From Eledone cirrhosa (lineage: Eukaryota): a stretch of 64,000 nt of DNA. Below, one piece after another: positions 36,677 through 64,000 of the stretch. Position numbers and translations under genes: made by a program. The stretch is from contig OZ024740.1 of NCBI GenBank assembly GCA_964016885.1, positions 49,290,001 through 49,354,000 on the forward strand, written 5' to 3'. Each line of letters begins with the position of its first letter. Position 1 is the first letter of the stretch. A model generated the notes under the pieces. It saw only the letters and a program-made list of their open reading frames with translations, was not told the origin of the DNA and did not search any database.

Positions 36677-36764
36677 CTCGCGATAGCTCAGTTGGTAGAG
36701 CGGAGGACTGTAGTAGTATTTACCTGTTATCCTTAGGTCGATGGTTCGAATCCGTCTCGCGAGA
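36677..36764 (+). tRNA. tRNA-Tyr-GTA: tRNA-Tyr(GTA) gene A, unit 6
   Basis: Perfect 88-nt consensus. Confidence 0.95.
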
Positions 36765-37393
36765 GTTGTATGTTTCTATTTTATTGCAGGTAAATAAAGA
36801 AAACGTTTTCCAAATTACTCGCTCTCTAGTATTCCAGTTTCTGTTTTAAAATAACAATTGTTTAAATTAACTGTTGTCACATAATTTTTACGCAATACAA
36901 TTATATTTACCATCTCTCGTTCCATTGTAAAAGAGAAGTACTGTAGAAGTTTACTCGATATAGTGCATAGCTCGGTAATATAGAGTCACTCTAGGTAGAG
37001 TCACTACTTCTTCAAATTGAGAGATCACAGCTCTAATATTTCAATCATGTGATTAGAATGTCAGTGGACAGATTTTAAAGGCAAAACCAAGTGGGGGTAC
37101 AGCCTGAGAACGACGCCTATTCTTTCCTATTTCTCTCTATCGGTGTTTAATATAACAGACGGTATATACTACTAATTACACTTGAAAATATATTTTATAT
37201 ACTACAGTAATTGATACGAAGATAAGTGAAGAAAAATATTGGTCATTTTCAATATTATATCAGGCTGGACAACCAAACTACACGAAGTGTGTTTCAAATA
37301 AAGTATGTGATTATTGAATCTGTAGCACAGTCATTTGACTCCATTAATGAGACATAGGTATTGTAACATTATTTTCAGTCGCATATCCTGTAC

Positions 37394-37481
37394 CTCGCGA
37401 TAGCTCAGTTGGTAGAGCGGAGGACTGTAGTAGTATTTACCTGTTATCCTTAGGTCGATGGTTCGAATCCGTCTCGCGAGA
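37394..37481 (+). tRNA. tRNA-Tyr-GTA: tRNA-Tyr(GTA) gene B, unit 6
   Basis: Perfect 88-nt consensus. Confidence 0.95.
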
Positions 37482-40400: not shown

Positions 40401-41657
40401 TCTCGCGAGACGGATTCGAACTATCGCCCTAAGTACAACGACTAATCACTACTACAGTCCTCCGCTCTACCAACTGAGCTATCGCAAGATGCTTGTAATC
40501 AAACCAAAAATAATGCCCTTTTATGGCGTCAAATGACTGTCCTAACCATTTTATAATCACATATTTTGTAAAGATACACAAATCGTGTAGTTTCGTCGTA
40601 CATTATGGTAATATGTCGAACATTACCAATACTTTGAAACAAGAAACTAACATTGGTTCAAGTCTAATGTTCTGAATCATCCCATTAACAAGGCTGACTT
40701 AGATTCAAAGAATTTTATAAGATTTGAAATATTTTATCAATCGAAAGAGTATTCTAGTACCGTTGAATCGTTAAAACTGACAATTTACTTTGCGACTTGT
40801 ATAAGTCAGTCTGGAGAGATAGTGTATACAGAGGTGTCAGTAATTGTAGTTAAAGGCTATGAAATTTCCTGTTCAAAAGATTCAACCGCTCCCCATGAAG
40901 TATGAACACGCCGTCGTTATTATATTGAAACATCAATATATTTCTTTCTATCGGAATATAATATTTACAGACGGTATATGTATATATTAATTGTATTCGA
41001 AAAGATATTTGATATAGTACAGAAATTGCTTCAAAAACTAAGTTCCTGCATTTAAATCAATCCACTCTCAGTCCATTACATGCTTCTGAGGCTTCCCCTA
41101 TCGAACTGGTTCAAGAATCTGAATATCTGGGTGTTACACTGACTCTGTGTATGATATGACCACCTGAATTGGTAAAACATGCAGTGCAATAACTTCACTA
41201 GAAAAAGATCTACAAAGTGCAAAGCTACGGTGAAACCCGTCGTATTATATGGTCCAGAATCCTGGACTCTCAGTGTTGCTCGCTCAAGGAGAATTGATGG
41301 TTCCTGCAATTGATGTGTAACTTTGTGCATGTTTCACCTTCATTGGAAGAATGATTCAATAAGACGAGAAGTAATTCATAAATAAATGTATGTTGAAACA
41401 TGTCAGATAAACTGTACACACCTCCTCAAGCATGGCAGCTGTACGGTAACCATTCAGAACATTATTCCTGGACCACTTTTGAAGTTCTCCGTAAAAAGTA
41501 TTGGTTATTTTCAATCTTATTCCAAGCTGAACGACCAAAATTACACGAAGCATGTGTTATTGTAAAGTATGGGATTATTGAATCTGTGGCGCAGTCTTTT
41601 GAGTTCATAAACAAGACATAGGTATTGTAGCATTATTTTTAGGGGAACTGCTAGTAA

Positions 41658-41745
41658 CTCGCGATAGCTCAGTTGGTAGAGCGGAGGACTGTAGTAGTAT
41701 TTACCTGTTATCCTTAGGTCGATGGTTCGAATCCGTCTCGCGAGA
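41658..41745 (+). tRNA. tRNA-Tyr-GTA: tRNA-Tyr(GTA) gene A, unit 7
   Basis: Perfect 88-nt consensus. Confidence 0.95.
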
Positions 41746-42374
41746 GTTGTATGTTTCTATTTTATTGCAGGTAAATAAAGAAAACGTTTTCCAAATTACT
41801 CGCTCTCTAGTATTCCAGTTTCTGTTTTAAAATAACAATTGTTTAAATTAACTGTTGTCACATAATTTTTACGCAATACAATTATATTTACCATCTCTCG
41901 TTCCATTGTAAAAGAGAAGTACTGTAGAAGTTTACTCGATATAGTGCATAGCTCGGTAATATAGAGTCACTCTAGGTAGAGTCACTACTTCTTCAAATTG
42001 AGAGATCACAGCTCTAATATTTCAATCATGTGATTAGAATGTCAGTGGACAGATTTTAAAGGCAAAACCAAGTGGGGGTACAGCCTGAGAACGACGCCTA
42101 TTCTTTCCTATTTCTCTCTATCGGTGTTTAATATAACAGACGGTATATACTACTAATTACACTTGAAAATATATTTTATATACTACAGTAATTGATACGA
42201 AGATAAGTGAAGAAAAATATTGGTCATTTTCAATATTATATCAGGCTGGACAACCAAACTACACGAAGTGTGTTTCAAATAAAGTATGTGATTATTGAAT
42301 CTGTAGCACAGTCATTTGACTCCATTAATGAGACATAGGTATTGTAACATTATTTTCAGTCGCATATCCTGTAC

Positions 42375-42462
42375 CTCGCGATAGCTCAGTTGGTAGAGCG
42401 GAGGACTGTAGTAGTATTTACCTGTTATCCTTAGGTCGATGGTTCGAATCCGTCTCGCGAGA
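42375..42462 (+). tRNA. tRNA-Tyr-GTA: tRNA-Tyr(GTA) gene B, unit 7
   Basis: Perfect 88-nt consensus. Confidence 0.95.
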
Positions 42463-45400
42463 GTTTGTTTTTGCTATTTCATTTCATTGGGAAAATCGTG
42501 AAATCATCTTCCAAATTACCCACAGTCCAGTATTCCTGTCTCCGTTTTAAAATAACAACTTTTTAAATTGACTAAATTCTGAAAGAAGTCTGTATCAATG
42601 AAATATTGTAGAATCTGTAAATTGGGGATGCTTTCATGATTTACTCCATAGAGTGAGAAAAGCATAATACAATTCTCCTGAAAAAGATTTGAATTCTCGA
42701 TCTACAGACAAAAAGTATTTGTCATTTACGATCTCATATCAAGTCTGAGGACTAAACTATACGACGTGTGTGTTGTAAAGTATGTGATTATTGAATCAAA
42801 AACAAGACAAAGTATTGCAGCATCATTTTTGGTAGAGCGGAGGACTGTAATAGTATTTATCTGTTATCCATAGATCGATGGCTCGAATCCGTCTCGCGAG
42901 AGTTGTAAATCATAAAAAAACCTCTTCACACGACTAACTACACATTTAAATGAATCTGATTATTGAATCATTAATGACGTTATAAACAATACATTGGTTT
43001 TGTAGCATTATTTGTAAGGGTATATTAAGGAACCCGGGAAAGTTCAATTGGTTGACTCGACCACTGTAGTAGTGTTGATGTTGACATTAGGTTGATGGTT
43101 TAAATCTCGCGAGATTGTGATTTTGTGTTATATTTTAATCATTATGCTATATAAATCATGAAATCATCTTCCAAACAACAAACACGCCAGTGTTTCTGTT
43201 TGTGTTTTTAAAGTACTCATCTCTTTTGCCAGCTACTGTCAACATTTTGTTCCTGTAAATGTCACTCAACACAATTGTATATTCCAGACTACGTTAACTT
43301 TTACACATGCCTCTACCTAACAAATCTATTCTTTCAGTAAATGTGGAATACATGACATCTTTGTAAATATATTCAGATATTAGTAACAATCATCAACTCA
43401 ATGAAACGCCGACTCATTCCAGAATCTTTCTCAGCAAGACAAAAGATGTTTTACTTAATATTGTAACAACCCCAAACCTTTAACCTCTAATCTTTGTTAT
43501 CCCTACATTTATCCTTCTTAATATGAGTGAGGTTGATATACTTCCATAGATGTATTCAATGAATCTCAGGATATACAAGATTGTAAGATATTCTCGCTAT
43601 AAGATATTCCCCTTCTCTTTCGGTTGATTAAATATTGTAAAATGTAATGTCTTTGAAATGAAGTCGACTTCCTTAATGTGATAATAGGATAGGTGAATTG
43701 TATTTGTTATAAACAAACCATTCCAAGAATTCAGAAGTCTTCAATAAAATGTTGGTTTCTAATGGAATGGTATAGTCTGTTTTGAGGTAATACCACTGTG
43801 AAGAATGTATATTGAATAACTGAATAAATCATTTGACGTCATAAAGAAATATTTGGTATTGTGATATTTATTATATTTAGCGCAAAGACATTCTAATGTA
43901 GTTGACTTATTAATTTAAAACTTTACTTTAACACACCGTCAGAACTGATAGTGTATATGGTGGTACCATCAATTGCAGTTAAATAGGATGAAATTTCCTC
44001 TTCAAAACACGCTGCCGTCTCCTAACAAATATGAATGTACTACTATTTAAATCATTGAAACATCGCAATAGTTCTCTGTATAGACATGAAACATCAACTG
44101 ATCTAAATTGTGCCACCGATTCAAAAACACACAATTTTTTGAACAGTTTGATCGCACAATATTATCTCGAAATTTGCGACGTCAGCATTGGTTTAAATCT
44201 AATATTCTGAATCATTAAATTAATGTAGTTGATTCAGTTCAAAAGAATTTAATATTTGAAATATTTTACCAAACGAAAGAATATTGTAATACCGTTGACT
44301 CTCGTTAATCTTGAAACATCACTATATTTAACTGTATAGAAATATAATATCTACTGATATATAGTAGTAAATACAAATGAAGCCGTTGACTCGTTAAAAT
44401 TGAAAATTTATTTTAACATATAATTAATCTGGATTAATAATGTATATAGAAATGTGTCATCAATTGAAGTAAATACGAGGACATTTTGTGCTTAAAACAT
44501 CCTACCGTCTCCTAACAAACCTGAATCTATTGCTATATAAATCTTTGAATACAATGTACAAACTGATTCAATGATGGCAGTTATGTCAACTGTAGTTACA
44601 GGTGTGACATTATACTGAGACTAATAACTCAGGCATGTAAATATATATCAGATAAGAAATATCTTACAACATGGAATATTCTGAGATTCACTGAATACAT
44701 TTATGGAAGCATAGTTATATATTTAGCAGGATAAATATAAGAAAAGTACATTGAAATCTGTATGTTTGGATTATAATGTGACAGTGGCATATTTTGCTGA
44801 ACTTATTACATCGAAACCACTTGAAACATTCAGATATTAGTTTCTGAACGTATTTTTCAGTTCATTGTAGAAATCATTTGTCAGTTTTGAGCTAATATTA
44901 TGTTGTAAGTCCAAACTACACGATATATTTGTCATTGGAAAGAATGTGATTATTGAATCATTAAATCAATCACTTTAGGTCATAAAGAAAACATTGATAT
45001 TGAAGCATTACTTGTGGCGAGATTTTAAGATACTCTCGATAGCACAACCGGTAGAATCCTTAGATCGACGGTTCGAAGACTTCTCGCGAGACTTGTGGTT
45101 CTGTATTTTGTGTTTAATCATGATGGAAAAAAATATATTGAAAAAAGCCCTGATATAGAAATTTATCAGACTGTACAACACAAGTTGATGTTGACAGTAG
45201 TCGTATAAATCCCGTAGTAATTATATTACATTGCTCGTCGTTATTCAGTTAATGTTCATACAATTGCCATAACTCCCACACCCAAATGTAGAGTTGTCTG
45301 GCGTGCTTGACACAGGAGTGGAACGAATTCGAAAGATGACTGCATGATTTATACGTAATAAAATATCAAAAACAAAGAAAGTCTCGCGAGACGGATTCGA

Positions 45401-46638
45401 ACTATCGCCCTAAGTACAACGACTAATCACTACTACAGTCCTCCGCTCTACCAACTGAGCTATCGCAAGATGCTTGTAATCAAACCAAAAATAATGCCCT
45501 TTTATGGCGTCAAATGACTGTCCTAACCATTTTATAATCACATATTTTGTAAAGATACACAAATCGTGTAGTTTCGTCGTACATTATGGTAATATGTCGA
45601 ACATTACCAATACTTTGAAACAAGAAACTAACATTGGTTCAAGTCTAATGTTCTGAATCATCCCATTAACAAGGCTGACTTAGATTCAAAGAATTTTATA
45701 AGATTTGAAATATTTTATCAATCGAAAGAGTATTCTAGTACCGTTGAATCGTTAAAACTGACAATTTACTTTGCGACTTGTATAAGTCAGTCTGGAGAGA
45801 TAGTGTATACAGAGGTGTCAGTAATTGTAGTTAAAGGCTATGAAATTTCCTGTTCAAAAGATTCAACCGCTCCCCATGAAGTATGAACACGCCGTCGTTA
45901 TTATATTGAAACATCAATATATTTCTTTCTATCGGAATATAATATTTACAGACGGTATATGTATATATTAATTGTATTCGAAAAGATATTTGATATAGTA
46001 CAGAAATTGCTTCAAAAACTAAGTTCCTGCATTTAAATCAATCCACTCTCAGTCCATTACATGCTTCTGAGGCTTCCCCTATCGAACTGGTTCAAGAATC
46101 TGAATATCTGGGTGTTACACTGACTCTGTGTATGATATGACCACCTGAATTGGTAAAACATGCAGTGCAATAACTTCACTAGAAAAAGATCTACAAAGTG
46201 CAAAGCTACGGTGAAACCCATCGTATTATATGGTCCAGAATCCTGGACTCTCAGTGTTGCTCGCTCAAGGAGAATTGATGGTTCCTGCAATTGATGTGTA
46301 ACTTTGTGCATGTTTCACCTTCATTGGAAGAATGATTCAATAAGACGAGAAGTAATTCATAAATAAATGTATGTTGAAACATGTCAGATAAACTGTACAC
46401 ACCTCCTCAAGCATGGCAGCTGTACGGTAACCATTCAGAACATTATTCCTGGACCACTTTTGAAGTTCTCCGTAAAAAGTATTGGTTATTTTCAATCTTA
46501 TTCCAAGCTGAACGACCAAAATTACACGAAGCATGTGTTATTGTAAAGTATGGGATTATTGAATCTGTGGCGCAGTCTTTTGAGTTCATAAACAAGACAT
46601 AGGTATTGTAGCATTATTTTTAGGGGAACTGCTAGTAA

Positions 46639-46726
46639 CTCGCGATAGCTCAGTTGGTAGAGCGGAGGACTGTAGTAGTATTTACCTGTTATCCTTAGGT
46701 CGATGGTTCGAATCCGTCTCGCGAGA
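46639..46726 (+). tRNA. tRNA-Tyr-GTA: tRNA-Tyr(GTA) gene A, unit 8
   Basis: Perfect 88-nt consensus. Confidence 0.95.
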
Positions 46727-47355
46727 GTTGTATGTTTCTATTTTATTGCAGGTAAATAAAGAAAACGTTTTCCAAATTACTCGCTCTCTAGTATTCCAGT
46801 TTCTGTTTTAAAATAACAATTGTTTAAATTAACTGTTGTCACATAATTTTTACGCAATACAATTATATTTACCATCTCTCGTTCCATTGTAAAAGAGAAG
46901 TACTGTAGAAGTTTACTCGATATAGTGCATAGCTCGGTAATATAGAGTCACTCTAGGTAGAGTCACTACTTCTTCAAATTGAGAGATCACAGCTCTAATA
47001 TTTCAATCATGTGATTAGAATGTCAGTGGACAGATTTTAAAGGCAAAACCAAGTGGGGGTACAGCCTGAGAACGACGCCTATTCTTTCCTATTTCTCTCT
47101 ATCGGTGTTTAATATAACAGACGGTATATACTACTAATTACACTTGAAAATATATTTTATATACTACAGTAATTGATACGAAGATAAGTGAAGAAAAATA
47201 TTGGTCATTTTCAATATTATATCAGGCTGGACAACCAAACTACACGAAGTGTGTTTCAAATAAAGTATGTGATTATTGAATCTGTAGCACAGTCATTTGA
47301 CTCCATTAATGAGACATAGGTATTGTAACATTATTTTCAGTCGAATATCCTGTAC

Positions 47356-47443
47356 CTCGCGATAGCTCAGTTGGTAGAGCGGAGGACTGTAGTAGTATTT
47401 ACCTGTTATCCTTAGGTCGATGGTTCGAATCCGTCTCGCGAGA
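47356..47443 (+). tRNA. tRNA-Tyr-GTA: tRNA-Tyr(GTA) gene B, unit 8
   Basis: Perfect 88-nt consensus. Confidence 0.95.
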
Positions 47444-50400
47444 GTTTGTTTTTGCTATTTCATTTCATTGGGAAAATCGTGAAATCATCTTCCAAATTAC
47501 CCACAGTCCAGTATTCCTGTCTCCGTTTTAAAATAACAACTTTTTAAATTGACTAAATTCTGAAAGAAGTCTGTATCAATGAAATATTGTAGAATCTGTA
47601 AATTGGGGATGCTTTCATGATTTACTCCATAGAGTGAGAAAAGCATAATACAATTCTCCTGAAAAAGATTTGAATTCTCGATCTACAGACAAAAAGTATT
47701 TGTCATTTACGATCTCATATCAAGTCTGAGGACTAAACTATACGACGTGTGTGTTGTAAAGTATGTGATTATTGAATCAAAAACAAGACAAAGTATTGCA
47801 GCATCATTTTTGGTAGAGCGGAGGACTGTAATAGTATTTATCTGTTATCCATAGATCGATGGCTCGAATCCGTCTCGCGAGAGTTGTAAATCATAAAAAA
47901 ACCTCTTCACACGACTAACTACACATTTAAATGAATCTGATTATTGAATCATTAATGACGTTATAAACAATACATTGGTTTTGTAGCATTATTTGTAAGG
48001 GTATATTAAGGAACCCGGGAAAGTTCAATTGGTTGACTCGACCACTGTAGTAGTGTTGATGTTGACATTAGGTTGATGGTTTAAATCTCGCGAGATTGTG
48101 ATTTTGTGTTATATTTTAATCATTATGCTATATAAATCATGAAATCATCTTCCAAACAACAAACACGCCAGTGTTTCTGTTTGTGTTTTTAAAGTACTCA
48201 TCTCTTTTGCCAGCTACTGTCAACATTTTGTTCCTGTAAATGTCACTCAACACAATTGTATATTCCAGACTACGTTAACTTTTACACATGCCTCTACCTA
48301 ACAAATCTATTCTTTCAGTAAATGTGGAATACATGACATCTTTGTAAATATATTCAGATATTAGTAACAATCATCAACTCAATGAAACGCCGACTCATTC
48401 CAGAATCTTTCTCAGCAAGACAAAAGATGTTTTACTTAATATTGTAACAACCCCAAACCTTTAACCTCTAATCTTTGTTATCCCTACATTTATCCTTCTT
48501 AATATGAGTGAGGTTGATATACTTCCATAGATGTATTCAATGAATCTCAGGATATACAAGATTGTAAGATATTCTCGCTATAAGATATTCCCCTTCTCTT
48601 TCGGTTGATTAAATATTGTAAAATGTAATGTCTTTGAAATGAAGTCGACTTCCTTAATGTGATAATAGGATAGGTGAATTGTATTTGTTATAAACAAACC
48701 ATTCCAAGAATTCAGAAGTCTTCAATAAAATGTTGGTTTCTAATGGAATGGTATAGTCTGTTTTGAGGTAATACCACTGTGAAGAATGTATATTGAATAA
48801 CTGAATAAATCATTTGACGTCATAAAGAAATATTTGGTATTGTGATATTTATTATATTTAGCGCAAAGACATTCTAATGTAGTTGACTTATTAATTTAAA
48901 ACTTTACTTTAACACACCGTCAGAACTGATAGTGTATATGGTGGTACCATCAATTGCAGTTAAATAGGATGAAATTTCCTCTTCAAAACACGCTGCCGTC
49001 TCCTAACAAATATGAATGTACTACTATTTAAATCATTGAAACATCGCAATAGTTCTCTGTATAGACATGAAACATCAACTGATCTAAATTGTGCCACCGA
49101 TTCAAAAACACACAATTTTTTGAACAGTTTGATCGCACAATATTATCTCGAAATCTGCGACGTCAGCATTGGTTTAAATCTAATATTCTGAATCATTAAA
49201 TTAATGTAGTTGATTCAGTTCAAAAGAATTTAATATTTGAAATATTTTACCAAACGAAAGAATATTGTAATACCGTTGACTCTCGTTAATCTTGAAACAT
49301 CACTATATTTAACTGTATAGAAATATAATATCTACTGATATATAGTAGTAAATACAAATGAAGCCGTTGACTCGTTAAAATTGAAAATTTATTTTAACAT
49401 ATAATTAATCTGGATTAATAATGTATATAGAAATGTGTCATCAATTGAAGTAAATACGAGGACATTTTGTGCTTAAAACATCCTACGGTCTCCTAACAAA
49501 CCTGAATCTATTGCTATATAAATCTTTGAATACAATGTACAAACTGATTCAATGATGGCAGTTATGTCAACTGTAGTTACAGGTGTGACATTATACTGAG
49601 ACTAATAACTCAGGCATGTAAATATATATCAGATAAGAAATATCTTACAACATGGAATATTCTGAGATTCACTGAATACATTTATGGAAGCATAGTTATA
49701 TATTTAGCAGGATAAATATAAGAAAAGTACATTGAAATCTGTATGTTTGGATTATAATGTGACAGTGGCATATTTTGCTGAACTTATTACATCGAAACCA
49801 CTTGAAACATTCAGATATTAGTTTCTGAACGTATTTTTCAGTTCATTGTAGAAATCATTTGTCAGTTTTGAGCTAATATTATGTTGTAAGTCCAAACTAC
49901 ACGATATATTTGTCATTGGAAAGAATGTGATTATTGAATCATTAAATCAATCACTTTAGGTCATAAAGAAAACATTGATATTGAAGCATTACTTGTGGCG
50001 AGATTTTAAGATACTCTCGATAGCACAACCGGTAGAATCCTTAGATCGACGGTTCGAAGACTTCTCGCGAGACTTGTGGTTCTGTATTTTGTGTTTAATC
50101 ATGATGGAAAAAAATATATTGAAAAAAGCCCTGATATAGAAATTTATCAGACTGTACAACACAAGTTGATGTTGACAGTAGTCGTATAAATCCCGTAGTA
50201 ATTATATTACATTGCTCGTCGTTATTCAGTTAATGTTCATACAATTGCCATAACTCCCACACCCAAATGTAGAGTTGTCTGGCGTGCTTGACACAGGAGT
50301 GGAACGAATTCGAAAGATGACTGCATGATTTATACGTAATAAAATATCAAAAACAAAGAAAGTCTCGCGAGACGGATTCGAACTATCGCCCTAAGTACAA

Positions 50401-51627
50401 CGACTAATCACTACTACAGTCCTCCGCTCTACCAACTGAGCTATCGCAAGATGCTTGTAATCAAACCAAAAATAATGCCCTTTTATGGCGTCAAATGACT
50501 GTCCTAACCATTTTATAATCACATATTTTGTAAAGATACACAAATCGTGTAGTTTCGTCGTACATTATGGTAATATGTCGAACATTACCAATACTTTGAA
50601 ACAAGAAACTAACATTGGTTCAAGTCTAATGTTCTGAATCATCCCATTAACAAGGCTGACTTAGATTCGAAGAACTTTATAAGATTTGAAATATTTTATC
50701 AATCGAAAGAGTATTCTAGTACCGTTGAATCGTTAAAACTGACAATTTACTTTGCGACTTGTATAAGTCAGTCTGGAGAGATAGTGTATACAGAGGTGTC
50801 AGTAATTGTAGTTAAATGCTATGAAATTTCCTGTTCAAAAGATTCAACCGCTCCCCATGAAGTATGAACACGCCGTCGTTATTATATTGAAACATCAATA
50901 TATTTCTTTCTATCGGAATATAATATTTACAGACGGTATATGTATATATTAATTGTATTCGAAAAGATATTTGATATAGTACAGAAATTGCTTCAAAAAC
51001 TAAGTTCCTGCATTTGAATCAATCCAGTCTCAGTCCATTACATGCTTCTGAGGCTTCACCTATCGAACTGGTTCAAGAATCTGAATATCTGGGTGTTACA
51101 CTGACTCTGTGTATGATATGACCACCTGAATTGGTAAAACATGCAGTGCAATAACTTCACTAGAAAAAGATCTACAAAGTGCAAAGCTACGGTGAAACCC
51201 ATCGTATTATATGGTCCAGAATCCTGGACTCTCAGTGTTGCTCGCTCAAGGAGAATTGATGGTTCCTACATCAAGACATTACGTGTGTAACTTTGTGCAT
51301 GTTTCACCTTCATTGGAAGAATGATTCAATAAGACGAGAAGTAATTCATAAATAAATGTATGTTGAAACATGTCAGATAAACTGTACACACCTCCTCAAG
51401 CATGGCAGCTGTACGGTAACCATTCAGAACATTATTCCTGGACCACTTTTGAAGTTCTCCGTAAAAAGTATTGCTTATTTTCAATCTTATTCCAAGCTGA
51501 ACGACCAAAATTACACGAAGCATGTGTTATTGTAAAGTATGGGATTATTGAATCTGTGGCGCAGTCTTTTGAGTTCATAAACAAGACATAGGTATTGTAG
51601 CATTATTTTTAGGGGAACTGCTAGTAA

Positions 51628-51715
51628 CTCGCGATAGCTCAGTTGGTAGAGCGGAGGACTGTAGTAGTATTTACCTGTTATCCTTAGGTCGATGGTTCGA
51701 ATCCGTCTCGCGAGA
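51628..51715 (+). tRNA. tRNA-Tyr-GTA: tRNA-Tyr(GTA) gene A, unit 9
   Basis: Perfect 88-nt consensus. Confidence 0.95.
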
Positions 51716-52344
51716 GTTGTATGTTTCTATTTTATTGCAGGTAAATAAAGAAAACGTTTTCCAAATTACTCGCTCTCTAGTATTCCAGTTTCTGTTTTAA
51801 AATAACAATTGTTTAAATTAACTGTTGTCACATAATTTTTACGCAATACAATTATATTTACCATCTCTCGTTCCATTGTAAAAGAGAAGTACTGTTGAAG
51901 TTTACTCGATATAGTGCATAGCTCGGTAATATAGAGTCACTCTAGGTAGAGTCACTACTTCTTCAAATTGAGAGATCACAGCTCTGATATTTCAATCATG
52001 TGATTAGAATGTCAGTGGACAGATTTTAAAGGCAAAACCAAGTGGGGGTACAGCCTGAGAACGACGCCTATTCTTTCCTATTTCTCTCTATCGGTGTTTA
52101 ATATAACAGACGGTATATACTACTAATTACACTTGAAAATATATTTTATATACTACAGTAATTGATACGAAGATAAGTGAAGAAAAATATTGGTCATTTT
52201 CAATATTATATCAGGCTGGACAACCAAACTACACGAAGTGTGTTTCAAATAAAGTATGTGATTATTGAATCTGTAGCACAGTCATTTGACTCCATTAATG
52301 AAACATAGGTATTGTAACATTATTTTCAGTCGAATATCCAGTAC

Positions 52345-52432
52345 CTCGCGATAGCTCAGTTGGTAGAGCGGAGGACTGTAGTAGTATTTACCTGTTATCC
52401 TTAGGTCGATGGTTCGAATCCGTCTCGCGAGA
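52345..52432 (+). tRNA. tRNA-Tyr-GTA: tRNA-Tyr(GTA) gene B, unit 9
   Basis: Perfect 88-nt consensus. Confidence 0.95.
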
Positions 52433-54411
52433 GTTTGTTTTTGCTATTTCATTTCATTGGGAAAATCGTGAAATCATCTTCCAAATTACCCACAGTCCAG
52501 TATTCCTGTCTCCGTTTTAAAATAACAACTTTTTAAATTGACTAAATTCTGAAAGAAGTCTGTATCAATGAAATATTGTAGAATCTGTAAATTGGGGATG
52601 CTTTCATGATTTACTCCATAGATTGAGAAAAGCATAATACAATTCTCCTGAAAAAGATTTGAATTCTCGATCTACAGACAAAAAATATTTGTCATTTACG
52701 ACCTCATATCAAGTCTGAGGACTAAACTATACGACGTGTGTGTTGTAAAGTATGTGATTATTGAATCAAAAACAAGACAAAGTATTGCAGCATCATTTTT
52801 GGTAGAGCGGAGGACTGTAATAGTATTTATCTGTTATCCATAGATCGATGGCTCGAATCCGTCTCGCGAGAGTTGTAAATCATAAAAAAACCTCTTCACA
52901 CGACTAACTACACATTTAAATGAATCTGATTATTGAATCATTAATGACGTTATAAACAATACATTGGTTTTGTAGCATTATTTGTAAGGGTATATTAAGG
53001 AACCCGGGAAAGTTCAATTGGTTGACTCGACCACTGTAGTAGTGTTGATGTTGACATTAGGTTGATGGTTTAAATCTCGTGAGATTGTGATTTTGTGTTA
53101 TATTTTAATCATTATGCTATATAAATCATGAAATCATCTTCCAAACAACAAACACGCCAGTGTTTCTGTTTGTGTTTTTAAAGTACTCATCTCTTTTGCC
53201 AGCTACTGTCAACATTTTGTTCCTGTAAATGTCACTCAACACAATTGTATATTCCAGACTACGTTAACTTTTACACATGCCTCTACCTAACAAATCTATT
53301 CTTTCAGTAAATGTGGAATACATGACATCTTTGTAAATATATTCAGATATTAGTAACAATCATCAACTCAATGAAACGCCGACTCATTCCAGAATCTTTC
53401 TCAGCAAGACAAAAGATGTTTTACTTAATATTGTAACAACCCCAAACCTTTAACCTCTAATCTTTGTTATCCCTACATTTATCCTTCTTAATATGAGTGA
53501 GGTTGATATACTTCCATAGATGTATTCAATGTATCTCAGGATATACAAGATTGTAAGATATTCTCGCTATAAGATATTCCCCTTCTCTTTCGGTTGATTA
53601 AATATTATAAAATGTAATGTCTTTGAAATGAAGTCGACTTCCTTAATGTGATAATAGGATAGGTGAATTGTATTTGTTATAAACAAACCATTCCAAGAAT
53701 TCAGAAGTCTTCAATAAAATGTTGGTTTCTAATGGAATGGTATAGTCTGTTTTGAGGTAATACCACTGTGAAGAATGTATATTGAATAACTGAATCAATC
53801 ATTTGACGTCATAAAGAAATATTTGGTATTGTGATATTTATTATATTTAGCGCAAAGACATTCTAATGTAGTTGACTTATTAATTTAAAACTTTACTTTA
53901 ACACACCGTCAGAACTGATAGTGTATATGGTGGTACCATCAATTGCAGTTAAATAGGATGAAATTTCCTCTTCAAAACACGCTGTCGTCTCCTAACAAAT
54001 ATGAATGTACTACTATTTAAATCATTGAAACATCGCAATAGTTCTCTGTATAGACATGAAACATCAACTGATCTAAATTGTGCCACCAATTCAAAAACAC
54101 ACAATTTTTTGAACAGTTTGATCACACAATATTATCTCGAAATTTGCGACGTCAGCATTGGTTTAAATCTAATATTCTGAATCATTAAATTAATGTAGTT
54201 GATTCAGTTCAAAAGAATTTAATATTTGAAATATTTTACCAAACGAAAGAATATTGTAATACCGTTGACTCTCGTTAATCTTGAAACATCACTATATTTA
54301 ACTGTATAGAAATATAATATCTACTGATATATAGTAGTAAATACAAATGAAGCCGTTGACTCGTTAAAATTGAAAATTTATTTTAACATATAATTAATCT
54401 GGATTAATAAT

Positions 54412-54551
54412 TGTTTCTACTTTTGGCACAAGGCCAGCAATTATCCAGTGCATTACTGGTACTTTATTTTATCGACCCCGTAAGGATGAAAGGCAAAGTT
54501 AACCTCGGCGGGATTTGAACTCAAACCATAAAGGGGCGTAACTGGGCGTAA
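54412..54551 (-). mobile_element. 5'-truncated SINE inserted in a single array unit, 16-bp TSD
   Basis: TSD AATCTGGATTAATAAT at 54396-54411 and 54552-54567; all other units have the empty site. Confidence 0.95.
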
Positions 54552-55514
54552 AATCTGGATTAATAATGTATATAGAAATGTGTCATCAATTGAAGTAAAT
54601 ACGAGGACATTTTGTGCTTAAAACATCCTACCGTCTCCTAACAAACCTGAATCTATTGCTATATAAATCTTTGAATACAATGTACAAACTGATTCAATGA
54701 TGCCAGTTATGTCAACTGTAGTTACAGGTGTGACATTATACTAAGACTAATAACTCAGGCATGTAAATATATATCAGATAAGAAATATCTTACAACATGG
54801 AATATTCTGAGATTCACTGAATACATTTATGGAAGCATAGTTATATATTTAGCAGGATAAATATAAGAAAAGTACATTGAAATCTGTATGTTTGGATTAT
54901 AATGTGACAGTGGCATATTTTGCTGAACTTATTACATCGAAACCACTTGAAACATTCAGATATTAGTTTCTGAACGTATTTTTCAGTTCATTGTAGAAAT
55001 CATTTGTCAGTTTTGAGCTAATATTATGTTGTAAGTCCAAACTACACGATATATTTGTCATTGGAAAGAATGTGATTATTGAATCATTAAATCAATCACT
55101 TTAGGTCATAAAGAAAACATTGATATTGAAGCATTACTTGTGGCGAGATTTTAAGATACTCTCGATAGCACAACCGGTAGAATCCTTAGATCGACGGTTC
55201 GAAGACTTCTCGCGAGACTTGTGGTTCTGTATTTTGTGTTTAATCATGATGGAAAAAAATATATTGAAAAAAGCCCTGATATAGAAATTTATCAGACTGT
55301 ACAACACAAGTTGATGTTGACAGTAGTCGTATAAATCCCGTAGTAATTATATTACATTGCTCGTCGTTATTCAGTTAATGTTCATACAATTGCCATAACT
55401 CCCACACCCAAATGACGGTGTAATGGAGAGTTGTCTGGCGTGCTTGACACAGGAGTGGAAAGAATTCGAAAGATGACTGCATGATTTATACGTAATAAAA
55501 TATCAAAAACAAAG

Positions 55515-55602
55515 TCTCGCGAGACGGATTCGAACCATCGACCTAAGGATAAAGACTAATCACTACTACATTCCTCCGCTCTACCAACTCAGCTATCGCA
55601 AG
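55515..55602 (-). pseudogene. Copy F variant: canonical 3' exon, A32, C13>G D-stem break
   Basis: Reverse complement CTTGCGATAGCTGAGTTGG...GGAATGTAG-tagtgattagtcttt-ATCCTTAGGTCGATGG... Confidence 0.7.
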
Positions 55603-56789
55603 ATGCTTGTAATCAAACCAAAAATAATGCCCTTTTATGGCGTCAAATGACTGTCCTAACCATTTTATAATCACATATTTTGTAAAGATACACAAATCGT
55701 GTAGTTTCGTCGTACATTATGGTAATATGTCGAACATTACCAATACTTTGAAACAAGAAACTAACATTGGTTCAAGTCTAATGTTCTGAATCATCCCATT
55801 AACAAGGCTGACTTAGATTCGAAGAATTTTATAAGATTTGAAATATTTTATCAATCGAAAGAGTATTCTAGTACCGTTGAATCGTTAAAACTGACAATTT
55901 ACTTTGCGACTTGTATAAGTCAGTCTGGAGAGATAGTGTATACAGAGGTGTCATGTTGTAGTTAAATGCTATGAAATTTCCTGTTCAAAAGATTCAACCG
56001 CTCCCCATGAAGTATGAACACGCCGTCGTTATTATATTGAAACATCAATATATTTCTTTCTATCGGAATATAATATTTACAGACGGTATATGTATATATT
56101 AATTGTATTCGAAAAGATATTTGATATAGTACAGAAATTGCTTCAAAAACTAAGTTCCTGCATTTGAATCAATCCACTCTCAGTCCATTACATGCTTCTG
56201 AGGCTTCACCTATCGAACTGGTTCAAGAATCTGAATATCTGGGTGTTACACTGACTCTGTGTATGATATGACCACCTGAATTGGTAAAACGTGCAGTGCA
56301 ATAACTTCACTAGAAAAAGATCTACAAAGTGCAAAGCTACGGTGAAACCCATCGTATTATATGGTCCAGAATCCTGGACTCTCAGTGTTGCTCGCTCAAG
56401 GAGAATTGATGGTTCCTACATCAAGACATTACGTGTGTAACTTTGTGCATGTTTCACCTTCATTGGAAGAATGATTCAATAAGACGAGAAGTAATTGATA
56501 TAAAGATTCATAAATAAATGTATGTTGAAACATGTCAGATAAACTGTACACACCTCCTCAAGCATGGCAGCTGTACGGTAACCATTCAGAACATTATTCC
56601 TGGACCACTTTTGAAGTTCTCCGTAAAAAGTATTGGTTATTTTCAATCTTATTCCAAGCTGAACGACCAAAATTACACGAAGCATGTGTTATTGTAAAGT
56701 ATGGGATTATTGAATCTGTGGCGCAGTCTTTTGAGTTCATAAACAAGACATAGGTATTGTAGCATTATTTTTATTGGAACTGCTAGTAA

Positions 56790-56877
56790 CTCGCGATAGC
56801 TCAGTTGGTAGAGCGGAGGACTGTAGTAGTATTTACCTGTTATCCTTAGGTCGATGGTTCGAATCCGTCTCGCGAGA
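56790..56877 (+). tRNA. tRNA-Tyr-GTA: tRNA-Tyr(GTA), A/B hybrid locus, unit 10
   Basis: Perfect consensus; gene-A 5' flank and gene-B 3' flank. Confidence 0.95.
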
Positions 56878-59803
56878 GTTTGTTTTTGCTATTTCATTTC
56901 ATTGGGAAAATCGTGAAATCATCTTCCAAATTACCCACAGTCCAGTATTCCTGTCTCCGTTTTAAAATAACAACTTTTTAAATTGACTAAATTCTGAAAG
57001 AAGTCTGTATCAATGAAATATTGTAGAATCTGTAAATTGGGGATGCTTTCATGATTTACTCCATAGAGTGAGAAAAGCATAATACAATTCTCCTGAAAAA
57101 GATTTGAATTCTCGATCTACAGACAAAAAGTATTTGTCATTTACGATCTCATATCAAGTCTGAGGACTAAACTATACGACGTGTGTGTTGTAAAGTATGT
57201 GATTATTGAATCAAAAACAAGACAAAGTATTGCAGCATCATTTTTGGTAGAGCGGAGGACTGTAATAGTATTTATCTGTTATCCATAGATCGATGGCTCG
57301 AATCCGTCTCGCGAGAGTTGTAAATCATAAAAAAACCTCTTCACACGACTAACTACACATTTAAATGAATCTGATTATTGAATCATTAATGACGTTATAA
57401 ACAATACATTGGTTTTGTAGCATTATTTGTAAGGGTATATTAAGGAACCCGGGAAAGTTCAATTGGTTGACTCGACCACTGTAGTAGTGTTGATGTTGAC
57501 ATTAGGTTGATGGTTTAAATCTCGCGAGATTGTGATTTTGTGTTATATTTTAATCATTATGCTATATAAATCATGAAATCATCTTCCAAACAACAAACAC
57601 GCCAGTGTTTCTGTTTGTGTTTTTAAAGTACTCATCTCTTTTGCCAGCTACTGTCAACATTTTGTTCCTGTAAATGTCACTCAACACAATTGTATATTCC
57701 AGACTACGTTAACTTTTACACATGCCTCTACCTAACAAATCTATTCTTTCAGTAAATGTGGAATACATGACATCTTTGTAAATATATTCAGATATTAGTA
57801 ACAATCATCAACTCAATGAAACGCCGACTCATTCCAGAATCTTTCTCAGCAAGACAAAAGATGTTTTACTTAATATTGTAACAACCCCAAACCTTTAACC
57901 TCTAACCTTTGTTATCCCTACATTTATCCTTCTTAATATGAGTGAAGTTGATATACTTCCATAGATGTATTCAATGTATCTCAGGATATACAAGATTGTA
58001 AGATATTCTCGCTATAAGATATTCCCCTTCTCTTTCGGTTGATTAAATATTGTAAAATGTAATGTCTTTGAAATGAAGTCGACTTCCTTAATGTGATAAT
58101 AGGATAGGTGAATTGTATTTGTTATAAACAAACCATTCCAAGAATTCAGAAGTCTTCAATAAAATGTTGGTTTCTAATGGAATGGTATAGTCTGTTTTGA
58201 GGTAATACCACTGTGAAGAATGTATATTGAATAACTGAATAAATCATTTGACGTCATAAAGAAATATTTGGTATTGTGATATTTATTATATTTAGCGCAA
58301 AGACATTCTAATGTAGTTGACTTATTAATTTAAAACTTTACTTTAACACACCGTCAGAACTGATAGTGTATATGGTGGTACCATCAATTGCAGTTAAATA
58401 GGATGAAATTTCCTCTTCAAAACACGCTGTCGTCTCCTAACAAATATGAATGTACTACTATTTAAATCATTGAAACATCGCAATAGTTCTCTCTATAGAC
58501 ATGAAACATCAACTGATCTAAATTGTGCCACCAATTCAAAAACACACAATTTTTTGAACAGTTTGATCGCACAATATTATCTCGAAATTTGCGACGTCAG
58601 CATTGGTTTAAATCTAATATTCTGAATCATTAAATTAATGTAGTTGATTCAGTTCAAAAGAATTTAATATTTGAAATATTTTGCCAAACGAAAGAATATT
58701 GTAATACCGTTGACTCTCGTTAATCTTGAAACATCACTATATTTAACTGTATAGAAATATAATATCTACTGATATATAGTAGTAAATACAAATGAAGCCG
58801 TTGACTCGTTAAAATTGAAAATTTATTTTAACATATAATTAATCTGGATTAATAATGTATATAGAAATGTGTCATCAATTGAAGTAAATACGAGGACATT
58901 TTGTGCTTAAAACATCCTACCGTCTCCTAACAAACCTGAATCTATTGCTATATAAATCTTTGAATACAATGTACAAACTGATTCAATGATGGCAGTTATG
59001 TCAACTGTAGTTACAGGTGTGACATTATACTGAGACTAATAACTCAGGCATGTAAATATATATCAGATAAGAAATATCTTACAACATGGAATATTCTGAG
59101 ATTCACTGAATACATTTATGGAAGCATAGTTATATATTTAGCAGGATAAATATAAGAAAAGTACATTGAAATCTGTATGTTTGGATTATAATGTGACAGT
59201 GGCATATTTTGCTGAACTTATTACATCGAAACCACTTGAAACATTCAGATATTAGTTTCTGAACGTATTTTTCAGTTCATTGTAGAAATCATTTGTCAGT
59301 TTTGAGCTAATATTATGTTGTAAGTCCAAACTACACGATATATTTGTCATTGGAAAGAATGTGATTATTGAATCATTAAATCAATCACTTTAGGTCATAA
59401 AGAAAACATTGATATTGAAGCATTACTTGTGGCGAGATTTTAAGATACTCTCGATAGCACAACCGGTAGAATCCTTAGATCGACGGTTCGAAGACTTCTC
59501 GCGAGACTTGTGGTTCTGTATTTTGTGTTTAATCATGATGGAAAAAAATATATTGAAAAAAGCCCTGATATAGAAATTTATCAGACTGTACAACACAAGT
59601 TGATGTTGACAGTAGTCGTATAAATCCCGTAGTAATTATATTACATTGCTCGTCGTTATTCAGTTAATGTTCATACAATTGCCATAACTCCCACACCCAA
59701 ATGACGGTGTAATGGAGAGTTGTCTGGCGTGCTTGACACAGGAGTGGAAAGAATTCGAAAGATGACTGCATGATTTATACGTAATAAAATATCAAAAACA
59801 AAG

Positions 59804-59891
59804 TCTCGCGAGACGGATTCGAACCATCGACCTAAGGATAAAGACTAATCACTACTACATTCCTCCGCTCTACCAACTGAGCTATCGCAAG
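59804..59891 (-). tRNA. tRNA-Tyr-GTA: Copy F variant: near-intact tRNA-Tyr(GTA) with A32 and U3.G70; function uncertain
   Basis: All stems pair; A- and B-boxes intact; intron TAGTGATTAGTCTTT; T-run downstream. Confidence 0.55.
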
Positions 59892-61078
59892 ATGCTTGTA
59901 ATCAAACCAAAAATAATGCCCTTTTATGGCGTCAAATGACTGTCCTAACCATTTTATAATCACATATTTTGTAAAGATACACAAATCGTGTAGTTTCGTC
60001 GTACATTATGGTAATATGTCGAACATTACCAATACTTTGAAACAAGAAACTAACATTGGTTCAAGTCTAATGTTCTGAATCATCCCATTAACAAGGCTGA
60101 CTTAGATTCGAAGAATTTTATAAGATTTGAAATATTTTATCAATCGAAAGAGTATTCTAGTACCGTTGAATCGTTAAAACTGACAATTTACTTTGCGACT
60201 TGTATAAGTCAGTCTGGAGAGATAGTGTATACAGAGGTGTCATGTTGTAGTTAAATGCTATGAAATTTCCTGTTCAAAAGATTCAACCGCTCCCCATGAA
60301 GTATGAACACGCCGTCGTTATTATATTGAAACATCAATATATTTCTTTCTATCGGAATATAATATTTACAGACGGTATATGTATATATTAATTGTATTCG
60401 AAAAGATATTTGATATAGTACAGAAATTGCTTCAAAAACTAAGTTCCTGCATTTGAATCAATCCACTCTCAGTCCATTACATGCTTCTGAGGCTTCACCT
60501 ATCGAACTGGTTCAAGAATCTGAATATCTGGGTGTTACACTGACTCTGTGTATGATATGACCACCTGAATTGGTAAAACGTGCAGTGCAATAACTTCACT
60601 AGAAAAAGATCTACAAAGTGCAAAGCTACGGTGAAACCCATCGTATTATATGGTCCAGAATCCTGGACTCTCAGTGTTGCTCGCTCAAGGAGAATTGATG
60701 GTTCCTACATCAAGACATTACGTGTGTAACTTTGTGCATGTTTCACCTTCATTGGAAGAATGATTCAATAAGACGAGAAGTAATTGATATAAAGATTCAT
60801 AAATAAATGTATGTTGAAACATGTCAGATAAACTGTACACACCTCCTCAAGCATGGCAGCTGTACGGTAACCATTCAGAACATTATTCCTGGACCACTTT
60901 TGAAGTTCTCCGTAAAAAGTATTGGTTATTTTCAATCTTATTCCAAGCTGAACGACCAAAATTACACGAAGCATGTGTTATTGTAAAGTATGGGATTATT
61001 GAATCTGTGGCGCAGTCTTTTGAGTTCATAAACAAGACATAGGTATTGTAGCATTATTTTTATTGGAACTGCTAGTAA

Positions 61079-61166
61079 CTCGCGATAGCTCAGTTGGTAG
61101 AGCGGAGGACTGTAGTAGTATTTACCTGTTATCCTTAGGTCGATGGTTCGAATCCGTCTCGCGAGA
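61079..61166 (+). tRNA. tRNA-Tyr-GTA: tRNA-Tyr(GTA), A/B hybrid locus, unit 11
   Basis: Perfect consensus; gene-A 5' flank and gene-B 3' flank. Confidence 0.95.
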
Positions 61167-64000
61167 GTTTGTTTTTGCTATTTCATTTCATTGGGAAAAT
61201 CGTGAAATCATCTTCCAAATTACCCACAGTCCAGTATTCCTGTCTCCGTTTTAAAATAACAACTTTTTAAATTGACTAAATTCTGAAAGAAGTCTGTATC
61301 AATGAAATATTGTAGAATCTGTAAATTGGGGATGCTTTCATGATTTACTCCATAGAGTGAGAAAAGCATAATACAATTCTCCTGAAAAAGATTTGAATTC
61401 TCGATCTACAGACAAAAAGTATTTGTCATTTACGATCTCATATCAAGTCTGAGGACTAAACTATACGACGTGTGTGTTGTAAAGTATGTGATTATTGAAT
61501 CAAAAACAAGACAAAGTATTGCAGCATCATTTTTGGTAGAGCGGAGTACTGTAATAGTATTTATCTGTTATCCATAGATCGATGGCTCGAATCCGTCTCG
61601 CGAGAGTTGTAAATCATAAAAAAACCTCTTCACACGACTAACTACACATTTAAATGAATCTGATTATTGAATCATTAATGACGTTATAAACAATACATTG
61701 GTTTTGTAGCATTATTTGTAAGGGTATATTAAGGAACCCGGGAAAGTTCAATTGGTTGACTCGACCACTGTAGTAGTGTTGATGTTGACATTAGGTTGAT
61801 GGTTTAAATCTCGCGAGATTGTGATTTTGTGTTATATTTTAATCATTATGCTATATAAATCATGAAATCATCTTCCAAACAACAAACACGCCAGTGTTTC
61901 TGTTTGTGTTTTTAAAGTACTCATCTCTTTTGCCAGCTACTGTCAACATTTTGTTCCTGTAAATGTCACTCAACACAATTGTATATTCCAGACTACGTTA
62001 ACTTTTACACATGCCTCTACCTAACAAATCTATTCTTTCAGTAAATGTGGAATACATGACATCTTTGTAAATATATTCAGATATTAGTAACAATCATCAA
62101 CTCAATGAAACGCCGACTCATTCCAGAATCTTTCTCAGCAAGACAAAAGATGTTTTACTTAATATTGTAACAACCCCAAACCTTTAACCTCTAATCTTTG
62201 TTATCCCTACATTTATCCTTCTTAATATGAGTGAGGTTGATATACTTCCATAGATGTATTCAATGAATCTCAGGATATACAAGATTGTAAGATATTCTCG
62301 CTATAAGATATTCCCCTTCTCTTTCGGTTGATTAAATATTGTAAAATGTAATGTCTTTGAAATGAAGTCGACTTCCTTAATGTGATAATAGGATAGGTGA
62401 ATTGTATTTGTTATAAACAAACCATTCCAAGAATTCAGAAGTCTTCAATAAAATGTTGGTTTCTAATGGAATGGTATAGTCTGTTTTGAGGTAATACCAC
62501 TGTGAAGAATGTATATTGAATAACTGAATAAATCATTTGACGTCATAAAGAAATATTTGGTATTGTGATATTTATTATATTTAGCGCAAAGACATTCTAA
62601 TGTAGTTGACTTATTAATTTAAAACTTTACTTTAACACACCGTCAGAACTGATAGTGTATATGGTGGTACCATCAATTGCAGTTAAATAGGATGAAATTT
62701 CCTCTTCAAAACACGCTGTCGTCTCCTAACAAATATGAATGTACTACTATTTAAATCATTGAAACATCGCAATAGTTCTCTGTATAGACATGAAACATCA
62801 ACTGATCTAAATTGTGCCACCAATTCAAAAACACACAATTTTTTGAACAGTTTGATCGCACAATATTATCTCGAAATTTGCGACGTCAGCATTGGTTTAA
62901 ATCTAATATTCTGAATCATTAAATTAATGTAGTTGATTCAGTTCAAAAGAATTTAATATTTGAAATATTTTGCCAAACGAAAGAATATTGTAATACCGTT
63001 GACTCTCGTTAATCTTGAAACATCACTATATTTAACTGTATAGAAATATAATATCTACTGATATATAGTAGTAAATACAAATGAAGCCGTTGACTCGTTA
63101 AAATTGAAAATTTATTTTAACATATAATTAATCTGGATTAATAATGTATATAGAAATGTGTCATCAATTGAAGTAAATACGAGGACATTTTGTGCTTAAA
63201 ACATCCTACCGTCTCCTAACAAACCTGAATCTATTGCTATATAAATCTTTGAATACAATGTACAAACTGATTCAATGATGGCAGTTATGTCAACTGTAGT
63301 TACAGGTGTGACATTATACTGAGACTAATAACTCAGGCATGTAAATATATATCAGATAAGAAATATCTTACAACATGGAATATTCTGAGATTCACTGAAT
63401 ACATTTATGGAAGCATAGTTATATATTTAGCAGGATAAATATAAGAAAAGTACATTGAAATCTGTATGTTTGGATTATAATGTGACAGTGGCATATTTTG
63501 CTGAACTTATTACATCGAAACCACTTGAAACATTCAGATATTAGTTTCTGAACGTATTTTTCAGTTCATTGTAGAAATCATTTGTCAGTTTTGAGCTAAT
63601 ATTATGTTGTAAGTCCAAACTACACGATATATTTGTCATTGGAAAGAATGTGATTATTGAATCATTAAATCAATCACTTTAGGTCATAAAGAAAACATTG
63701 ATATTGAAGCATTACTTGTGGCGAGATTTTAAGATACTCTCGATAGCACAACCGGTAGAATCCTTAGATCGACGGTTCGAAGACTTCTCGCGAGACTTGT
63801 GGTTCTGTATTTTGTGTTTAATCATGATGGAAAAAAATATATTGAAAAAAGCCCTGATATAGAAATTTATCAGACTGTACAACACAAGTTGATGTTGACA
63901 GTAGTCGTATAAATCCCGTAGTAATTATATTACATTGCTCGTCGTTATTCAGTTAATGTTCATACAATTGCCATAACTCCCACACCCAAATGTAGAGTTG

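What the first reader, a model, noticed from the sequence alone, without database searches (positions are those of the whole stretch)
55515..59891. Apparent compensatory change at the anticodon-intron (A-I) splicing base pair
Seen: copy F in units 1-8 has C32 and an intron ending GTT. The copies at 55515-55602 and 59804-59891 have C32>A together with an intron ending TTT, so C:G becomes A:U. Known: the eukaryotic tRNA splicing endonuclease (TSEN) relies on a pair between position 32 and the antepenultimate intron base for 3' splice-site cleavage, normally pyrimidine32:purine. The same two copies have a canonical 3' exon. Inference: selection may have kept a spliceable, non-canonical A32 tRNA-Tyr. 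It is one event on one haplotype and could be chance.
Basis: partly seen in the sequence, partly recalled or inferred. Interest (0 to 1): 0.7.

Follow-up and report, generated by a model that had tools for sequence, protein, structure and literature searches.

The report
Odd paired changes in spare tRNA
Two neighbouring copies of a many-copy tyrosine tRNA gene carry a matching pair of changes at the base pair that guides intron removal, but they come from a single event and the match is most likely chance in a redundant, decaying gene copy rather than a selected repair.

Summary
Observation confirmed. In a tandem array of intron-containing tRNA-Tyr(GTA) genes, 13 of 15 copies of slot F have C32 with intron G(-3); 2 of 15 (55515-55602, 59804-59891) have A32 with T(-3) and a canonical 3' exon. 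The two are one event: a recent 4.3-kb duplication (6 differences in 4280 bp) of an older F allele kept in a ~160-bp tract. Selection is not shown. One copy already has a D-stem break (C13>G). About 39 exon-identical canonical copies exist. 5 of 39 lineages change one side only, and a heavily decayed copy shows its own 'compensation' (T32:A). Stem double changes match chance (6 vs 5.5). All 5 intron-bearing purine-32 metagenome loci keep G(-3). For selection: among 19 near-intact lineages an A-I match has chance probability 0.02 (0.29 at any pair), and the A32 branch changed less than its sister. Published assays show an A-U pair splices, less well. No RNA evidence was available. Best reading: neutral double hit, likely weakly spliceable (0.65); selected compensation 0.2.

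The parts
55515..55602 (-). tRNA-Tyr(GTA) gene, slot F, A32 allele with extra C13>G (D-stem break) and U3:G70 wobble; 37-nt 5' exon, 15-nt intron, 36-nt canonical 3' exon
   Evidence: Rfam RF00005 47.9 bits
59804..59891 (-). tRNA-Tyr(GTA) gene, slot F, A32 allele with all four stems intact; the only candidate for a working A32 tRNA
   Evidence: Rfam RF00005 52.9 bits against 59.8 for canonical copies and 41.6 for the common F
55571..55571 (-). Position 32, A instead of C (first copy)
55553..55553 (-). Intron position -3, T instead of G (first copy)
55590..55590 (-). C13>G, private to the first copy, breaks C13-G22
59860..59860 (-). Position 32, A instead of C (second copy)
59842..59842 (-). 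Intron position -3, T instead of G (second copy)
55551..55565 (-). 15-nt intron of the first copy (second copy: 59840-59854)
55411..55571 (.). About 160-bp diverged tract shared by the two A32 units: 8 substitutions and 2 indels in 150 aligned columns against the common unit, about ten times the background; keeps ancestral states in the 3' exon and 3' flank
55201..63769 (.). Recent tandem duplication of a 4289-bp variant unit (6 differences in 4280 bp) that carries the A32 allele and a 716-bp deletion fusing the two canonical copies into one
15496..50450 (-). Eight common F copies, one per 4981-bp unit: C32, intron GTT, decayed 3' exon (G30xA40 and A52xC62 mismatches)
11772..64000 (.). Tandem array of about 5-kb units, each with 1-2 canonical tRNA-Tyr(GTA) genes, several remnants and one slot-F gene; it runs on about 22 kb past the window end

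Best explanation
The two genes are a recent duplicate of one older allele of a spare slot in a tRNA-Tyr tandem array, and the matching A32 and intron T(-3) changes are most likely two independent neutral hits that happen to pair. Shown: the allele sits in a short tract that escaped the homogenisation of the rest of the unit, keeps ancestral 3' exon and flank states, and was copied once with its 4.3-kb unit. Inferred: with about 39 exon-identical canonical copies, slot F is under little or no selection, so both G:C-to-T:A type changes (or a slip that lost the G in a T run) drifted in. Predicted: if the 59804 copy is transcribed, TSEN would cut it at reduced efficiency and give a minor A32.A38 tRNA-Tyr that is likely unstable; the 55515 copy would likely misfold.
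For: One event: 6 differences in 4280 bp between the duplicated segments, one being C13>G in the gene. Redundancy: 36 of 159 fetched copies match the reference over both exons and the last 5 intron bases, 3 more over both exons. The other 13 of 15 F copies have decayed and persist. A-I states in 39 lineages: C:G 32, C:C 3, T:G 2, A:T 1, T:A 1; the T:A copy has 11 substitutions and a modelled cloverleaf probability of 0.0000. Watson-Crick double changes in the 21 stem pairs: 6 seen, 5.5 expected by permutation; any-pair chance among 19 near-intact lineages 0.285. C>A (19) and G>T (23) are ordinary among 265 substitutions. All 11 dispersed copies on other contigs with at most one exon change keep C32 and G(-3) despite very different introns, so intact copies hold C:G, not just any pair. 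Metagenomes: of 7 purine-32 hits, 5 are intron-bearing tRNA-Tyr-like loci (3 lineages), all keep G(-3) and all are damaged elsewhere. The A:U pair is flanked by U x C and two wobbles; modelled P(A-I | cloverleaf) 0.002 against 0.020 for C:G on the same background and 0.099 canonical. A32 is an exception to a quasi-universal pyrimidine and where cited occurs with U38 (PMC5041475, passages); yeast C32A tRNA-Tyr is a decay substrate, ratio 2-4 (PMC6913130, section 5).
Against: The only two sure changes on the A32 branch both hit this one pair and are complementary: per-lineage chance 0.0003-0.0013 for 2-3 changes, 0.021 across 19 near-intact lineages; A-I Watson-Crick doubles 2 seen against 0.42 expected, P = 0.064. 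None of the other 18 near-intact lineages has a one-sided A-I change. The A32 branch has 2-3 changes against 7-8 on the common-F branch (one-sided P 0.055-0.17), which fits longer constraint. The 59804 copy keeps all stems, the internal promoter boxes, the upstream motif and a T5 run after the gene. Modelled P(cloverleaf plus A-I) for it (0.0008) is close to a canonical-type copy (0.0011).
Confidence: 0.65

Rival explanations
1. Selected compensation: the slot-F ancestor was a working gene; C32>A came first (it also breaks a competing hairpin between G30-U33 and the F intron's AGUC and frees the anticodon stem), and G(-3)>T then restored the A-I pair, keeping a spliceable A32 isodecoder or removing a half-cut precursor.
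For: Low chance for a near-intact copy (0.021); slower branch; canonical 3' exon kept; on the F background modelled cloverleaf probability rises from 0.009 (C32/G) to 0.37 (A32/G) and 0.36 (A32/U); A-U supports some splicing; yeast C32A alone still yields measurable mature tRNA, so the intermediate is passable.
Against: 2 of 159 fetched copies; 13 of 15 sister copies decayed freely; C13>G appeared within 6 mutations of the duplication (chance of one in the gene about 0.12 by my hand calculation, so no sign of constraint, low power); the A32 gain in modelled folding also appears on the canonical background (0.047 to 0.32), so it is not specific to F; no intact purine-32 tRNA-Tyr among 7 metagenome hits; no known benefit of A32.A38.
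Confidence: 0.2
2. One mutational or recombinational event made both changes: gene conversion from a donor copy not in this assembly, or hairpin-templated repair or template switching in the single-stranded tRNA gene.
For: The changes lie in a sharply bounded tract with ten times the background divergence, so the tract itself came by conversion or unequal exchange; tRNA genes are reported to have 7-10 times raised mutation rates (PMC6130373, abstract).
Against: No donor in the assembly: only 15 F-type introns and 15 F-type 3' flanks, all in this array. The arms are not a perfected palindrome: a 3-nt bulge separates the stem from the A-I pair and neighbouring mismatches were not corrected (sequence). 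A donor would only move the question back one step.
Confidence: 0.08
3. Assembly or consensus artefact: the tract does not exist in the animal.
For: None of the contigs laid from three runs of one sample shows the A32 base or the T(-3) base; the spanning contig is the common F type.
Against: Such contigs drop rare variants, and 2 of 15 copies is a small bubble; the sample may be another individual. The tract occurs twice identically, and holds ancestral states that a consensus error would not invent: an 11-bp stretch that the common F lacks but a distant paralogue keeps and no CTTT duplication.
Confidence: 0.07

Closest known systems
Eukaryotic intron-containing tRNA-Tyr(GTA) genes, spliced by TSEN at the canonical 37/38 position
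   Same: Anticodon GTA, 15-nt intron between 37 and 38, C1-G72 and A73, 6 nt from position 32 to the 5' splice site and a 3-nt bulge at the 3' site.
   Different: A32:U(-3) instead of pyrimidine-32:purine(-3); all 16 Drosophila intronic tRNAs have C-G (10.1101/497545, passages), and the human rule is pyrimidine:purine (PMC8479045, passages).
Engineered A-I (proximal base pair) swaps: G32:C in yeast pre-tRNA-Phe and human pre-tRNA-Tyr 8-1; A-U, U-A, G-U in Drosophila tRNA-Tyr reporters
   Same: The A-U state has been built and tested: splicing continues at reduced level; mismatches block 3' cleavage.
   Different: Here it is a natural genomic allele, with a weak distal helix (U x C, G.U, U.G), a condition that reduced splicing in the same study even with an intact proximal pair.
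Bacterial A32 tRNAs (E. coli tRNA-Ala GGC, tRNA-Pro GGG)
   Same: Purine at 32.
   Different: Those have no intron and the cited pair is A32-U38, which tunes decoding (PMC5041475, PMC7293025; passages); here 38 is A.
Tandem tRNA gene arrays with pseudogenes under birth-and-death and unequal exchange (recalled, general knowledge)
   Same: Near-identical 5-kb units, decayed copies carried along, variant sub-blocks.
   Different: Nothing of kind.

Membership tests
Intron-containing tRNA-Tyr(GTA) gene | Cloverleaf with GTA anticodon and intron after position 37 | tested here: met
   ARAGORN intron mode calls both Tyr(gta) at default threshold; Rfam RF00005 52.9 and 47.9 bits, gathering 29
Intron-containing tRNA-Tyr(GTA) gene | All four stems paired | tested here: inconclusive
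   Met for 59804-59891; not met for 55515-55602 (G13 x G22; modelled D stem lost)
Intron-containing tRNA-Tyr(GTA) gene | Pyrimidine at 32 paired with a purine at intron -3 | tested here: not met
   A32:U in both copies; a pair is possible but the classes are swapped
Intron-containing tRNA-Tyr(GTA) gene | Pol III A and B boxes and a T-run terminator | tested here: met
   Box regions equal to canonical copies in the 59804 gene; T5 within 10 nt downstream; read from sequence only
Intron-containing tRNA-Tyr(GTA) gene | Transcribed, spliced and charged | not testable with these tools
Selected compensatory substitution | Both sides change and stay complementary | tested here: met
   C:G to A:U on one branch
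Selected compensatory substitution | Excess of double over single changes beyond chance | tested here: inconclusive
   2 doubles and 5 singles in 39 lineages; P(at least 2 Watson-Crick doubles) 0.064; near-intact subset 0.021 for this pair, 0.285 for any pair
Selected compensatory substitution | Recurs in independent lineages or species | tested here: not met
   The two copies are one event; 0 of 5 intron-bearing purine-32 metagenome loci have T(-3), though these are damaged copies from a mostly prokaryotic collection
Selected compensatory substitution | The gene stays under purifying selection after the change | tested here: inconclusive
   C13>G in one duplicate argues against; fewer changes on the branch (P 0.055-0.17) argues for

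The most novel reading that the evidence does not exclude
A natural purine-32 tRNA-Tyr isodecoder arose by a two-step selected path (C32>A unlocking a misfolded precursor, then intron G>T restoring the splicing pair), is expressed and spliced from the 59804 gene, and shows that an intron base can co-evolve with an anticodon-loop base in a nuclear tRNA array.
Probability: 0.12. Interest if true: 0.55.

Novelty: new variant of a known kind. Interest (0 to 1): 0.2.

Why it matters
If selected, it would be a natural case of the swapped A-I pair that has so far been shown with engineered substrates (my searches, listed no natural eukaryotic example; subscription papers and supplements were not seen), and it would show selection acting on a single member of a highly redundant tRNA array. 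As it stands it is a ready-made natural substrate for a TSEN assay and an example of how decaying tRNA copies produce apparent covariation by chance. It does not change what is known about TSEN.

Tried and rejected
Expression: no RNA holder listed; this is no evidence either way. Reads: three contig sets from one sample and one RAD-seq run laid on 55300-55800 show only the common F type; uninformative because rare variants are dropped, and the RAD run barely covers the gene. Whether that sample carries the variant unit at all was not established. Donor search: no F-type intron or flank outside the array (such searches give lower bounds). Template switch: rejected by reading the arms, no perfected palindrome. 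Idea that the canonical 3' exon was converted in from a canonical copy: a distant remnant (L009:876) shares G38/A40 with the common F, but F's nearest paralogue by 5' flank (L003:8686) has canonical C40 and T47, and the ancestral 11-bp and non-duplicated CTTT states travel with the A32 tract, so retention of an older allele fits better. Folding models were given little weight: even the canonical precursor reaches only 0.047 for the cloverleaf body. ARAGORN without intron mode miscalls the genes as Leu(TAG). Earlier findings of the scan: two look-ups, nothing. Rows dropped before the statistics: of 74 distinct rows, 13 truncated, deleted or poorly aligned, 4 identical to the reference and 18 collapsed by eye into clades were left out, leaving 39; residual shared ancestry remains, so the P values are approximate.

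Full report
Setting. The window is G000:C1:49290001-49354000 of a 3.0-Gb assembly; I did not identify the organism. ARAGORN in intron mode shows a cluster of tRNA-Tyr(GTA) genes with 15-nt introns after position 37; without intron mode it miscalls them Leu(TAG).

Observation. It is exact. The genes at 55515-55602 and 59804-59891 have A32, an intron ending TTT and a canonical 3' exon; the eight earlier F copies have C32, GTT and four 3'-exon changes. Five more F copies beyond the window are also C32/GTT, and the assembly holds no other F-type intron or 3' flank, so the count is 2 of 15. The 55515 copy has a further change, C13>G, that breaks the D stem. Rfam scores are 59.8 bits for canonical copies, 52.9 and 47.9 for the A32 copies, 41.6 for common F.

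History. The two A32 copies are one event: the segments 55201-59480 and 59490-63769 differ at 6 of 4280 positions, one being C13>G. Against the common unit, the A32 units have 8 substitutions and 2 indels in a tract of 150 aligned columns (about 55411-55571) but only 29 substitutions in 4796 and 22 in 4077 columns elsewhere. The tract is mostly ancestral: a paralogue at L005:6796 keeps the 11-bp stretch that common F lacks, no other aligned paralogue has the CTTT duplication, and F's nearest relative by 5' flank has canonical C40 and T47. So an older F allele survived in a short tract while the rest of the unit was homogenised (inference). On its branch I can place 2 sure changes and 1 unpolarised one; on the common-F branch 7-8 (one-sided P 0.055-0.17). 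The intron change may be G>T or loss of the G in a T run (equal parsimony by hand).

Is it more than chance? I scored 39 lineages after dropping 35 of 74 distinct rows (13 truncated or poorly aligned, 4 identical to the reference, 18 collapsed into clades). A-I states: C:G 32, C:C 3, T:G 2, A:T 1 (this allele), T:A 1. The T:A copy (L004:222) has 11 substitutions and is plainly decayed. In the 21 stem pairs, Watson-Crick double changes number 6 against 5.5 by permutation; at the A-I pair 2 against 0.42 (P = 0.064; at least one, 0.35). All five one-sided changes are in copies with 7-18 substitutions; none is in a near-intact copy. So the event is unusual but was picked after the fact, and it is single.

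Other species. One scan of metagenome contigs for the tRNA-Tyr motif with a purine at 32 gave 7 loci. Five are intron-bearing tRNA-Tyr-like genes in three lineages; all keep G at intron -3 and all are damaged elsewhere. One is an intronless, 5'-truncated copy with A32 and U38, one is not tRNA-like. No intact purine-32 gene was found; the collection is mostly prokaryotic and the match exact, so this is a weak test. Within the genome, the 11 dispersed copies on other contigs with at most one exon change all keep C32 and G(-3) although their introns differ widely.

Would it splice and work? Human TSEN needs a pair, not particular bases (PMC8479045 and 10.1101/2022.09.03.506465; passages). In Drosophila cells A-U and U-A reduce splicing, G-U nearly and C-C fully block it, and the proximal pair alone is not sufficient if the rest of the helix is unpaired (10.1101/497545; passages). 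Here the pair is followed by U x C, G.U and U.G. ViennaRNA gives P(A-I | cloverleaf) of 0.002 against 0.020 for C:G on the same background and 0.099 canonical, but A32 raises the cloverleaf probability, so P(cloverleaf plus A-I) is 0.0008 for the 59804 copy against 0.0047 and 0.0011 for two canonical-type copies, and 0.00002 for the 55515 copy. These models are crude. A mature A32.A38 loop departs from a quasi-universal pyrimidine at 32 (PMC5041475; passages); in yeast the C32A tRNA-Tyr variant gives mature tRNA that is subject to Met22-dependent decay, ratio 2-4 (PMC6913130; section 5). Prediction: 59804 is weakly spliceable if transcribed, 55515 likely not.

Read evidence. Contigs from three runs of one sample show only common F at both positions. 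Contigs drop rare variants and the sample may be another individual, so this neither confirms nor refutes the allele; an artefact is unlikely because the tract recurs twice and holds ancestral states.

Verdict. Most likely (0.65) a neutral double hit on an old allele of a spare gene: 39 exon-identical copies exist, 13 of 15 sister copies have decayed, and one of the two duplicates is already broken. Selected compensation keeps 0.2 on the strength of the low per-lineage chance and the slower branch; a single conversion or repair event 0.08; artefact 0.07. It is a member of the intron-containing tRNA-Tyr family with one defining feature (pyrimidine:purine A-I pair) not met, and it works, if at all, like the engineered A-U swaps already described. 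Papers seen: passages of PMC8479045, 10.1101/497545, PMC10485636, 10.1101/2022.09.03.506465, PMC7293025, PMC5041475, PMC4090602; passages and section 5 of PMC6913130; abstract and outline of PMC6130373 and PMC13034040; no supplements. Searches for a natural example listed none; GtRNAdb-type tables and subscription papers were not seen. Interest 0.2.

Noticed in passing
L004:222-309 (G000:C1:49384222): A decayed tRNA-Tyr copy with 11 substitutions has T32 and intron A(-3): a second, independent apparent A-I compensation, used here as a chance control.
   Followed up: yes
window 54396-54551: 156-bp insertion private to the unit just before the first A32 copy, flanked by a direct repeat of about 15 bp; related sequence lies in flanks of other copies. 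Looks like a recent short mobile element insertion (inferred, not searched against a library).
   Followed up: no
window 56790-56877 and 61079-61166: In two units a 716-bp deletion fuses the two canonical genes into one, with the 5' flank of the first and the 3' flank of the second: recombination between neighbouring tRNA copies.
   Followed up: partly
window 4527-4617: A 3-bp insertion next to the anticodon gives a GAA reading; ARAGORN calls it tRNA-Phe on a Tyr body. It also has two T-arm changes, so likely a pseudogene.
   Followed up: no
window 369-61166: ARAGORN without intron mode labels the Tyr genes Leu(TAG) (22 of 23 calls), an annotation trap for this array.
   Followed up: yes
about 30 nt upstream of most array copies, e.g. 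window 56760-56775: A conserved AT-rich upstream motif (TAGCATTATTTT-like) precedes canonical and decayed copies alike; could be an upstream Pol III element or just shared ancestry.
   Followed up: no
L009:876-963 (G000:C1:49280876): An old remnant with different flanks shares G38 and A40 with the common F allele; homoplasy or a very short conversion.
   Followed up: partly
window 15496-50450, slot F: The F intron carries an AGUC stretch complementary to G30-U33; the common F precursor is modelled to fold into this competing hairpin instead of the anticodon stem.
   Followed up: partly
L041:104-180: An intronless, 5'-truncated tRNA-Tyr-like sequence in a metagenome contig has A32 together with U38, the pairing known from some bacterial tRNAs; probably a pseudogene coincidence.
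   Followed up: no
L019, L021, L027, L028, L031-L034: Dispersed tRNA-Tyr genes on contigs C3, C8, C15 and C24 have the same exons but varied introns of about 14-21 nt, all with G at -3 and longer T-run terminators than the array copies.
   Followed up: partly
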